Source: the human T2T-CHM13v2.0 reference genome, Homo sapiens
NCBI RefSeq assembly: GCF_009914755.1
Contig: NC_060937.1
DNA length: 64,000 nucleotides
Direction: 5' to 3' (one strand)
The first letter of the stretch is position 1, and every line of letters begins with the position of its first letter. Under the pieces are notes generated by a model that saw nothing but the letters and a program-made list of their open reading frames with translations, searched no databases and had not been told where the DNA came from. Made by a program: the position numbers and the translations under genes. Positions 39,495 through 41,583 of the stretch are shown here, one piece after another.

Positions 39495-40154
39495 CCTGTT
39501 CTAATAACAATTGACTTGATCAGAAACTCTCTATGTGCATTCCAATTAGTAATGGAGTAAAATGTTAACAATTCTGCAAATGCACTTACTCCCATCAGCA
39601 CATTTTCTAAGGGGCTTTATGATCTTGGGAATTCTTCAAACATTATTAGCACAATCCCATGTCTAAGGGAAGTCCATTTAGAAGTAACACAGACGCTTAG
39701 AGTAAATGTGCTTGTAATAATAATTATATTATGTAATATGGAGAAAAATAGTCAAACAATAGGATTACTATTTGAAACAATGGATGAAGGATTAAAAAGC
39801 AAGTCTTTAATCACAGAAGAGTTAAATGAAGCACCAGCTGCACTGCCACAATCAACTATCAAATGCAGGCCTGTTAGCCTCTCTGGTATTCTCTGGAAGT
39901 GCAGAATTGTATATACTATACTGCAAATACAATTATATTTGTGCCAGTTAATCCACAAAATAGTTTACTGTATGTATGCATAATTAAATTAACTCTTAAG
40001 CATTTAAGAAAATTCAAAGTCAATTAAACAAAACAAAATTTGCTTTGAGTCAAGGAGTATAATGTGTCTGTAGTAACCAAAGCAGCAAAATATGTTAATT
40101 TTTAATTAATTTGAACTTTCATTGCTGCAGTGAGGTTTTCACACCAACAACAAA
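39495..40154 (+). repeat. Inverted duplication IR3, left arm (660 bp)
   Basis: Reverse complement of 40923-41583 with 13 substitutions and one 1-nt indel (hand count). Confidence 0.98.
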
Positions 40155-40233
40155 AACCAGTGAGCCACAGGCTGGAAACAAAAATGAGTGAGACACAGGC
40201 TGGAAACAAAAACGAGTGAGACACAGGCTGGAA
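40150..40233. repeat. 3 x 28-bp tandem repeat
   Basis: ACAAAAAY(C/G)AGTGAG(C/A)CACAGGCTGGAA at 40150, 40178 and 40206. Confidence 0.92.
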
Positions 40234-40527
40234 AGGCTCAGCATGCCCCAGCTTCCCAGGGAGAAGCTGCTCTGGGCAAGGCCTTCTGTGCCTGATGAGT
40301 GGTTTTGGTAGAATCTGAAAGAGCATGAATCCATTTCCAGTAAGAAGCAGCCAGACAGGAGAGGTCACTGGGAGTCAGTTTCAGGAGACAGATCGAGGGG
40401 ATGCTGACACTGACATTAGCCTTCTACGAGGGGCCTACTTCCTGCCATGCCCCAAAGCATTCTGGAGCGAAGACTGCCCATGGAATAAAATCACCCCGAC
40501 AAGAATGAGCTATTAAAGTGCATGAAG

Positions 40528-40813
40528 AACTTTGGGAGGCCGAGGCGGGTGGACCATTTGAGGTCAGGAGTTCAAGACCAGCCTGGCCAACATGGTGAAA
40601 CCCCGTGTCTACTAAAAATACAAAAATTAACTGGGCATGGTGGTGTGCACCTGTAATCCCAGCTAATTGGGAGGCTGAGGCACAAGAATCATTTGAACCT
40701 GGGAGGCAGAGTTTGTAGTGAGCCAAAATCGCACCACTGCACTCCAGCCTAGGCGACAGAGCAAGACTCAGTCTCAAAAAAAAAAAAAAAAAAAGGTAAA
40801 AGAAAAAAAAAAG
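40528..40813 (+). mobile_element. 5'-truncated Alu (S-type) in the IR3 spacer
   Basis: Begins at ACTTTGGGAGG; perfect 13-bp TSD AAAGTGCATGAAG at 40515-40527 and 40814-40826. Confidence 0.95.
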
Positions 40814-40922
40814 AAAGTGCATGAAGGGGCCAGAAAATGGCTATGGATGTCCATTTTCTCATTTGTTTTCTTAAAGAGTTTTCCTGAAACATTGATTCAA
40901 ACAAGAGAAATGCTCTTTCGTG

Positions 40923-41583
40923 TTTGTTGTTGGTGTGAAAACCTCACTGCAGCAATGAAAGTTCAAATTAATTAAAAATTAACATATTTTGCTGCTTTGG
41001 TTACTACAGACACATTATACTCCTTGACTCAAAGCAAATTTTGTTTTGTTTAATTGACTTTGAATTTTCTTAAATGCCTAAGAGTTAATTTAATTATGCA
41101 TACATACAGTAAACTATTTTGTGGATTAATTGGCACAAATATAATTGTATTTGCAGTATAGTATATACAATTCTGCACTTCCAGAGAATACCAGAGAGGC
41201 TAACAGGCCTGCATTTGATAGTTGATTGTGACAGTGCAGCTGGTGCTTCATTTAACTCTTCTGTGATTAAAGACTTGCTTTTTAATCCTTCATCCATTGT
41301 TTCCAACAGCAATCCTATTGTTTGACTATTTTTTCTCCATATTACATAATATAATTATTATTACAAGCACATTTACTCTAAGCATCTGTGTTACTTCTAA
41401 ATGGACTTCCCTTAGACAAGGGATTGTGTTAATAATGTTTGAAGAATTCCCAAGATCATAAAGCCCCTTAGAAAATGTGCTGATGAGAGTAAGTGCATTT
41501 GCAGAATTGTTAACGTTTTACTCCATTACTAATTGGAATGCACACAGAGAGTTTCTGATCAAGTCAATTGTTTTTAGAACAGG
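40923..41583 (-). repeat. Inverted duplication IR3, right arm (661 bp)
   Basis: See the left arm; mirrored ORFs in the track (39708/41094 and 39752/41119) confirm the duplication. Confidence 0.98.

What the first reader, a model, noticed from the sequence alone, without database searches (positions are those of the whole stretch)
39495..41583. Near-perfect 660-bp non-Alu inverted repeat (IR3) deep in the 47.5-kb intron
Seen: 39495-40154 and 40923-41583 are reverse complements with only 13 substitutions and one 1-nt indel (~98%), separated by a 768-bp spacer. The arms are AT-rich, resemble no TE I recognise and have no TSD. Established: long intronic dsRNA is an ADAR substrate, and near-identical inverted repeats promote inversion and hairpin/cruciform fragility. 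Inference: MYO16 pre-mRNA can fold into a ~660-bp almost unbroken duplex, longer and better paired than a typical Alu pair. It could be hyper-edited, yield small RNAs or influence splicing, and the spacer may be a recurrent polymorphic inversion.
Basis: partly seen in the sequence, partly recalled or inferred. Interest (0 to 1): 0.8.

Follow-up and report, generated by a model that had tools for sequence, protein, structure and literature searches.

The report
Catalogued 660-bp intronic inverted duplication
A real, nearly perfect 660-base inverted duplication of unique sequence sits in a MYO16 intron and could fold the pre-mRNA into a long hairpin, but it is already listed in a published catalogue, where it shows almost no expression or editing, so it is probably a neutral relic.

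Summary
Arms 39495-40154 and 40923-41583 are reverse complements with 13 substitutions and one 1-nt indel (647/661 = 97.88%), separated by 768 nt.

The arms are not a recognisable mobile element. In the whole assembly they match only each other. The same search did find 72-77% identical copies of an old repeat in the left flank.

The spacer holds a 28-bp x3 tandem repeat and a 5'-truncated, CpG-poor Alu with a 13-bp target-site duplication.

As RNA, the 2,089 nt fold into one hairpin with 650 arm-arm pairs (MFE -1332.6 kcal/mol).

It is not new. Barak et al. 2020 (PMC7006430, Table S8) list an hg19 chr13 structure with identical geometry (661 nt, 97.882%, 768-nt gap) among 197 long, tight inverted duplicates in human RefSeq transcripts. 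Their values are FPKM 0.0029 and editing indices 0 and 2.7%.

Most likely this is a neutral inverted duplication about 10 million years old (5-17 My at 1e-9 per site per year), removed with the intron. Inversion, hyper-editing and small RNAs remain untested. Cruciform fragility is unlikely with a 768-nt spacer.

The parts
39495..40154 (.). Left arm of the inverted repeat (660 nt, GC 32%)
   Evidence: alignment; composition. The only other place it matches in the assembly is the right arm.
40155..40922 (.). Single-copy spacer (768 nt; 469 nt before the Alu inserted). The outermost 11 nt on each side (40155-40165 / 40912-40922) continue the repeat weakly, with 7 of 11 matching.
   Evidence: The non-Alu left part, 40155-40523, matches only itself in the assembly.
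40149..40234 (+). 28-bp tandem repeat, 3.1 copies, starting in the last 6 nt of the left arm
   Evidence: family D1; TRF: period 28, 93% matches, score 151.
40515..40826 (+). 5'-truncated Alu (body 40528-40813 with A-rich tail), flanked by a 13-bp target-site duplication at 40515-40527 and 40814-40826
   Evidence: sequence; the two 13-mers are identical. One search gives a Metazoa_SRP-like Rfam match at 40630-40777. One search gives many 86-89% matches genome-wide. One search finds 5 CpG in 252 nt.
40923..41583 (.). Right arm of the inverted repeat (661 nt), reverse complement of the left arm

Best explanation
This is an old, probably fixed and neutral inverted duplication of unique intronic sequence. 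A 660-nt stretch was copied in reverse orientation about 470 nt away (768 nt today, after or around an Alu insertion). The most plausible route is a replication or repair template switch or fold-back that left a single-copy spacer. This step is inferred.

The two copies have since drifted apart by 2.0%, which points to an origin roughly 10 million years ago. This date is inferred and rests on recalled substitution rates.

Because both arms lie in one MYO16 intron on the transcribed strand, the nascent pre-mRNA can fold into a hairpin of about 650 bp. This is shown thermodynamically only. The hairpin is a potential nuclear ADAR substrate and is discarded with the intron. It encloses no exon.

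For: - Geometry and identity.
- Unique sequence: the arm finds 2 of 2 candidate places in the 3.1-Gb assembly, namely itself and the other arm. The 140-codon frame in the arm, searched as protein, finds nothing else below E = 1. There is no Pfam match for 4 of 4 frames tried. Rfam gives no match on the arms at E <= 1; its 4 matches lie in the Alu or at 38943-38996.
- Sensitivity control: the same search recovers 317 candidates (40 scored, 72-77% identity) for an old repeat at about 38305-38730.
- Not an assembly artefact: Barak et al. 2020 Table S8 lists chr13:109592743-109593403 / 109594171-109594832 in hg19 with length 661 and identity 97.881997%. This equals 647/661 and the 768-nt gap seen here in T2T-CHM13. 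Two independent assemblies therefore carry it.
- Age: 13/660 gives a Jukes-Cantor distance of 0.0200. That is 10 My at 1e-9 per site per year (Poisson 95% range 5-17 My) or 20 My at 0.5e-9. By my count from the list, 10 of the 13 substitutions are transitions and 2 lie at CpG sites.
- Neutral drift: the mismatch positions do not depart clearly from uniform (KS p = 0.065, or 0.13 with the 3-site cluster collapsed). The longest perfect run, 155 nt, has P = 0.39.
- RNA fold: MFE -1332.6 kcal/mol, with 650 of 870 pairs joining the two arms in register.
- Architecture: an inverted copy plus a single-copy spacer matches the fold-back products described for human inverted duplications (abstract of PMC3907307).
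Against: - No outgroup sequence could be examined. The age, the direction of copying (which arm is the original) and the absence of gene conversion are all inferred from one haplotype, plus one table row for hg19.
- The mismatch density falls towards the spacer (7 in the outer 205 nt, 0 in the inner 155 nt; P = 0.03 for the empty inner part taken alone). This could hint at conversion near the loop.
- The own-genome search skips very common words and scores only the best candidates. A very old or very diverged repeat origin of the arm sequence itself cannot be excluded. That would not change the duplication reading.
- 'Neutral' rests on the absence of evidence. Expression and editing were measured only in poly(A) GTEx pools with almost no coverage (FPKM 0.0029).
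Confidence: 0.75

Rival explanations
1. A miniature autosomal palindrome. The inverted repeat would be much older than 2% divergence suggests. Its arms would be kept alike by recurrent intrachromosomal gene conversion and/or NAHR that also flips the 768-nt spacer (inversion toggling).
For: - The arms are in the right orientation, and the inner 155 nt are identical.
- There is a weak trend of fewer differences towards the spacer (KS p = 0.065).
- The Alu inside the spacer looks old: 5 CpG left in 252 nt, and at most 89% identity to the other copies that were scored. The spacer is therefore older than the apparent age of the arms.
- IR-mediated inversions recur in humans (PMC3961182).
Against: - 2% divergence is far from the near-identity of conversion-maintained palindromes (a recalled figure).
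- The trend is not significant once the 3-site cluster is collapsed (p = 0.13).
- The validated IR-mediated inversions in Aguado et al. Table 1 have repeats of 1.6-32 kb, larger than the 0.66 kb here.
- An old Alu in the spacer is equally expected if a young duplication formed around it.
- A second unique inverted repeat in the same intron has decayed to 86%, so conversion is not a general property of this region.
- I found no inversion at this place in the sources I could open.
Confidence: 0.12
2. A functional dsRNA element. The intronic hairpin would be a selected ADAR (or Dicer/Drosha) substrate that modulates MYO16 pre-mRNA processing or yields small RNAs.
For: - The predicted duplex is very stable.
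- 7 of the 13 non-identical positions are A.C mismatches on the sense transcript. From recalled ADAR biochemistry, these are favoured editing contexts.
- Some long tight structures in the same catalogue are heavily edited (PMC7006430 main-text passages).
Against: - The published values for this structure are AEI 0 and 2.7% at FPKM 0.0029, below the paper's expression cut-off.
- It flanks no exon.
- No Rfam miRNA or other RNA family matches the arms.
- The arms are diverging at about the neutral rate, including an indel.
- A full-text search for MYO16 together with 'A-to-I' and 'RNA editing' returned 1 paper, an unrelated mouse methylation study.
Confidence: 0.08
3. A transposable element with long terminal inverted repeats, or two insertions of one element in opposite orientation.
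For: The arm-spacer-arm layout is AT-rich and superficially resembles a foldback or long-TIR element.
Against: - No target-site duplication.
- No other copy of the arm, the non-Alu spacer or the right flank anywhere in the assembly, although the method detects 72-77% identical repeats.
- No transposase-like domain in 4 of 4 frames tried.
Confidence: 0.03
4. An assembly artefact: a falsely duplicated, inverted arm.
For: None found.
Against: hg19 shows the same geometry and the same identity to the third decimal (Table S8 of PMC7006430) as T2T-CHM13. The 13 fixed differences and the indel between the arms are not what a collapsed or mirrored read would give.
Confidence: 0.01

Closest known systems
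Long, nearly perfect inverted duplicated sequences (IDS) in human pre-mRNAs (Barak et al. 2020, Genome Biol 21:26, PMC7006430)
   Same: It meets the class definition: over 300 bp, over 96% identity, and both arms in one RefSeq transcript. It is itself one of the 197 entries. Like most entries, it is intronic and barely expressed.
   Different: The paper says most dsRNA structures reside in repeats. The dsRNAscan preprint says most long tight pairs are inverted LINEs (PMC11838218 section 10). This one is made of otherwise single-copy sequence.
Inverted duplications with a single-copy spacer formed by fold-back or template switching (Hermetz et al. 2014, PMC3907307, abstract read)
   Same: An inverted copy and its original are separated by a non-duplicated spacer. 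A short imperfect continuation of the repeat sits at the spacer boundary (7 of 11 nt).
   Different: The described cases are large, terminal and pathogenic, and arise through a dicentric chromosome. This one is a 0.66-kb interstitial event fixed in a normal genome, and its junctions cannot be polarised without an outgroup.
Inverted-repeat-mediated polymorphic inversions (Aguado et al. 2014, PMC3961182)
   Same: Two highly similar inverted repeats flank a short unique segment, which is the substrate geometry for NAHR inversion.
   Different: The validated cases have repeats of 1.6-32 kb and inverted segments of 5.1-226 kb. Here the repeats are 0.66 kb, the longest perfect tract is 155 bp, and no second orientation has been observed.
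Inverted Alu pairs, the usual human intramolecular dsRNA and ADAR substrate
   Same: It is an intronic inverted repeat that folds in the pre-mRNA.
   Different: It is twice as long and about 98% rather than about 80% paired (window Alu pairs have a median of 82%). It is not a mobile element.

Membership tests
Long, tight inverted duplicated sequence in pre-mRNA (Barak et al. 2020) | Arm length over 300 bp | tested here: met
   660/661 nt.
Long, tight inverted duplicated sequence in pre-mRNA (Barak et al. 2020) | Identity over 96% | tested here: met
   647/661 = 97.88%. The table value is 97.881997.
Long, tight inverted duplicated sequence in pre-mRNA (Barak et al. 2020) | Both arms within one RefSeq transcript | tested here: met
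   Both arms lie in intron 9268-56785 of NM_001198950.3 by the supplied annotation (one search gives the distances). The structure is listed in Table S8, 'within human RefSeq transcripts'.
Transposable-element-derived inverted repeat | Further copies of the arm elsewhere in the genome | tested here: not met
   Only 2 of 2 places, the two arms. The positive control for diverged repeats worked.
Transposable-element-derived inverted repeat | Target-site duplication at the outer ends | tested here: not met
   The flanks differ...CTGGGTCC on the left, CAGCAGCT... on the right.
Transposable-element-derived inverted repeat | Remnant of a transposase or reverse-transcriptase coding sequence | tested here: not met
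   0 Pfam families for 4 of 4 frames at E <= 10. No RepeatMasker or Dfam was available.
Segmental duplication | At least 1 kb and at least 90% identity (definition as quoted in PMC11794170) | tested here: not met
   The identity criterion is met (97.9%), but the length of 0.66 kb is under 1 kb.
NAHR inversion polymorphism | Both orientations of the enclosed segment seen in the population | not testable with these tools
   Only one haplotype was readable. No record was found in the texts and supplements I could open. Two further papers were not held.
Cruciform- or hairpin-prone palindrome (PATRR-like fragile site) | Arms adjacent or nearly so (very short spacer) | tested here: not met
   The spacer is 768 nt. 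Distance is inversely correlated with IR instability (abstract of PMC10164571).
Conversion-maintained palindrome (sex-chromosome type) | Arm-to-arm identity near 100%, maintained across species | tested here: inconclusive
   2.0% divergence argues against it. Cross-species data were not available.
miRNA or other described structured RNA | Match to an Rfam covariance model | tested here: not met
   There were 4 matches at E <= 1 in 38500-42600. All are below their gathering scores and none lies on the arms: 3 are in the Alu and 1 is at 38943-38996.

The most novel reading that the evidence does not exclude
The repeat is a miniature autosomal palindrome that predates the great apes. Its arms would be held at about 98% by ongoing gene conversion, and its 768-nt spacer would toggle orientation among human haplotypes. 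In MYO16-expressing neurons, the ~650-bp hairpin would be one of the longest non-repeat ADAR substrates in a human gene.
Probability: 0.1. Interest if true: 0.45.

Novelty: already known. Interest (0 to 1): 0.25.

Why it matters
Long, nearly perfect intramolecular dsRNAs are rare in human genes: 197 in RefSeq transcripts (PMC7006430) and 2,018 genome-wide, of which 88% are intergenic (PMC11838218 section 10). They are the kind of self-RNA that innate sensors and ADAR1 must deal with.

This entry is unusual within that list because it is built from single-copy sequence rather than LINE or Alu pairs. That makes it a clean natural test case with no cross-mapping. It could be used to ask whether such a hairpin forms and is edited in nuclear pre-mRNA, and to measure conversion and inversion rates of sub-kilobase inverted repeats.

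As it stands, it is an ordinary and probably neutral structural relic that has already been catalogued. Nothing here points to an effect on MYO16.

Tried and rejected
- Transposable-element origin. Own-genome DNA searches with the arm, the whole 4.4-kb region (only the two Alus matched elsewhere, and only 40 of 8,447 candidates were scored), the non-Alu spacer and the right flank found nothing beyond self matches. I rejected this origin, with the caveat that the tool skips very common words.\n- Coding relic. The left arm carries a 140-codon stop-free frame. It is rare in Markov-1 shuffles of the arm (P = 0.0018). It has no Pfam match and no paralogue, and the indel breaks it in the right arm. 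It ranks only 6th of 18 frames of 120 or more codons in the window. I treat it as chance.\n- Extension of the repeat at lower identity, or further copies in the window. A sensitive blastn of 38000-43000 against the window gave only the arms and Alu matches.\n- Structured-RNA families. There was nothing on the arms.\n- Conversion gradient along the arms. It is not significant.\n- Published inversions. Aguado 2014 lists chr13 inversions elsewhere. The inversion-benchmark supplements have no row starting with my estimated hg38 or the T2T coordinates. The hg38 coordinates were estimated from a recalled hg19-hg38 offset and may be off. The Porubsky 2022 DOI and a recalled PMC id for Ebert 2021 were not held.\n- The dsRNAscan supplement held is only a PDF that names the tables, so Table S5 could not be checked.\n- Earlier findings of this scan were not open to the session.

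Full report
**Observation.** The repeat finder gives two abutting inverted pairs offset by one base. A local alignment with extra flank shows 39495-40154 paired with 40923-41583: 660 against 661 nt, 13 substitutions and one extra A in the right arm, so 647/661 = 97.88%. The spacer is 768 nt. Eleven further nucleotides on the inner side continue weakly (7 of 11 match). The alignment stops sharply at the outer ends and there is no target-site duplication. In the whole 64-kb window there are 27 inverted pairs of 200 nt or more. Only this one (1 of 27) reaches 90% identity, and the median of the pairs is 82%. By my count from the list, 10 of the 13 substitutions are transitions and 2 lie at CpG sites.

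**Anatomy.** The arms are AT-rich (GC about 32%, one CpG each). The spacer is different in composition:
- A 28-bp unit repeated 3.1 times starts in the last 6 nt of the left arm (40149-40234).
- About 290 nt of roughly 52% GC single-copy sequence follow.
- Then comes a 5'-truncated Alu (40528-40813) in the sense orientation, with a perfect 13-bp target-site duplication (40515-40527 = 40814-40826).
- The last 96 nt (40827-40922) return to AT-rich sequence.

The Alu is CpG-poor (5 CpG in 252 nt) and at most 89% identical to the other copies that were scored, so it looks old. Before its insertion the spacer was 469 nt.

**What the arms are.**
- Searched against the whole 3.1-Gb assembly, the arm finds two places only, itself and the other arm (2 of 2 candidates).
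- The non-Alu spacer and the right flank find only themselves.
- The same tool recovered 317 candidates (40 scored, 72-77% identity) for an old interspersed repeat at about 38305-38730 in the left flank. It can therefore see diverged repeat families.
- In the 4.4-kb query only the two Alus matched elsewhere (40 of 8,447 candidates scored).
- A 140-codon open frame in the left arm has no Pfam match and no paralogue at E < 1. It is broken by the indel in the right arm and is unremarkable among the window's 18 frames of 120 or more codons. It is rare in shuffles of the arm alone (P = 0.0018).
- Rfam finds nothing on the arms.

The arms are therefore a duplication of otherwise unique sequence, not two insertions of a mobile element. 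No RepeatMasker or Dfam was available, and the genome search skips very common words. An ancient repeat ancestry of the sequence itself is not excluded.

**Already in print.** Barak et al. 2020 (Genome Biol 21:26, PMC7006430) aligned every pre-mRNA to itself and list all 197 human inverted duplicated sequences longer than 300 bp and over 96% identical within RefSeq transcripts. I read main-text passages and searched Table S8 and read one part of the file.
- Row 83 reads chr13 109592743-109593403 / 109594171-109594832 (hg19), length 661, identity 97.881997. These are the same arm lengths, the same 768-nt gap and the same 647/661 as here. With the arm unique in the genome, this is the same structure.
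- From the supplied gene span, the hg19 position places the end of MYO16 within about 300 bp of the hg19 end coordinate that I recall. That coordinate is recalled, not taken from a call.
- In the muscle pool there is no coverage.
- The structure is therefore not among the 20 of 197 whose arms both exceed FPKM 0.01.
- The presence of the identical structure in hg19 and T2T-CHM13 also rules out an assembly artefact.

The dsRNAscan preprint (PMC11838218, section 10 read) counts 2,018 predicted dsRNAs over 300 bp and over 96% paired in the genome, mostly inverted LINE pairs and 88% intergenic. Its table of them was not readable. A genome-wide map of repeat pairs of 200 bp or more and 80% identity or more counts 627,791 inverted pairs in T2T-CHM13 (PMC11794170, passages).

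**Age and mode of evolution.** 13/660 gives a Jukes-Cantor distance of 0.0200. That corresponds to about 10 My at 1e-9 per site per year (Poisson range 5-17 My), or 20 My at 0.5e-9. The rates are recalled values. This sits between the recalled human-gorilla and human-orangutan divergences.

The differences thin out towards the spacer (none in the inner 155 nt, P = 0.03 taken alone). The overall spread is compatible with uniform (KS p = 0.065, or 0.13 with the three-site cluster at 39767-39773 collapsed). A 155-nt perfect run is expected by chance (P = 0.39). There is thus no clear sign of gene conversion, but one haplotype cannot exclude it.

An inverted copy separated from its source by a single-copy spacer is the signature described for fold-back or template-switch events (abstract of PMC3907307). 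Which arm is the copy cannot be decided without an outgroup.

**RNA.** MYO16 is transcribed from the + strand and both arms lie in the 47,518-nt intron.
- The 2,089-nt stretch folds with MFE -1332.6 kcal/mol. Of its 870 pairs, 650 join the arms in register, and the longest uninterrupted helix is 155 bp.
- On the sense transcript the 13 differences become 3 G.U wobbles, 7 A.C mismatches and 3 others, plus a 1-nt bulge.
- The right arm is transcribed before the next inverted Alu (42532-42817, 81% identical to the spacer Alu), so the arms should pair first. This is inferred.
- The hairpin encloses no exon and sits 30.2 kb and 15.2 kb from the neighbouring exons. A role in splicing or back-splicing therefore has no anatomical support.
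- Editing by nuclear ADARs is plausible from established biochemistry. The only data I found show almost no coverage and at most 2.7%.
- A full-text search for MYO16 with 'A-to-I' and 'RNA editing' returned 1 unrelated paper.

**DNA.** With a 768-nt spacer, cruciform extrusion or lagging-strand hairpins are unlikely. Distance and divergence between inverted repeats are inversely correlated with instability except in long single-stranded regions (abstract of PMC10164571). The 2% divergence itself shows that the structure has survived for millions of years.

NAHR between the arms would invert the spacer without any gain or loss. The validated human examples have repeats of 1.6-32 kb (Table 1 of PMC3961182), whereas here the repeat is 0.66 kb with a 155-bp longest perfect tract. 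I found no inversion recorded at this place.

**Verdict.** It is a catalogued member of a known class. It is most likely a neutral inverted duplication about 10 My old, whose RNA hairpin is removed with the intron. The functional ideas are untested, and the little published data on this structure do not support them.

Noticed in passing
window 30302-30679 and 32046-32414: There is a second inverted repeat of otherwise single-copy sequence in the same intron. It aligns over 381 columns at about 86% identity with a 1,366-nt spacer. In the assembly the arm matches only itself and its partner. It looks like an older event of the same kind, about 9 kb upstream.
   Followed up: partly
window 38305-38730: An old interspersed repeat lies in the left flank. 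It has 317 candidate copies genome-wide, and the 39 scored copies other than the self match are 72-77% identical. The family is not named because no repeat library was available. It served as the sensitivity control.
   Followed up: partly
window 40526-40822 and 42532-42817: The Alu inside the spacer has an inverted Alu partner 1.7 kb downstream (81% identity over 297 columns). This pair straddles the right arm, so a competing and much weaker Alu-Alu pairing is possible in the pre-mRNA.
   Followed up: no
window 39561-39983 (+): A 140-codon stop-free frame lies in the AT-rich left arm. It is rare in shuffles of the arm (P = 0.0018). It has no Pfam match and no paralogue, is broken by the indel in the right arm, and ranks 6th of 18 long frames in the window. 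It is probably chance.
   Followed up: yes
window 39456-39479: A perfect 9-bp stem with a 6-nt loop lies in the left flank and ends 15 nt before the outer edge of the left arm. Short hairpins near breakpoints are sometimes linked to template switching.
   Followed up: no
window 39767-39773 / 41304-41310: Three of the 13 arm differences fall within 7 nt (A/G, A/G, T/G). This suggests one multi-nucleotide event rather than three independent substitutions.
   Followed up: partly
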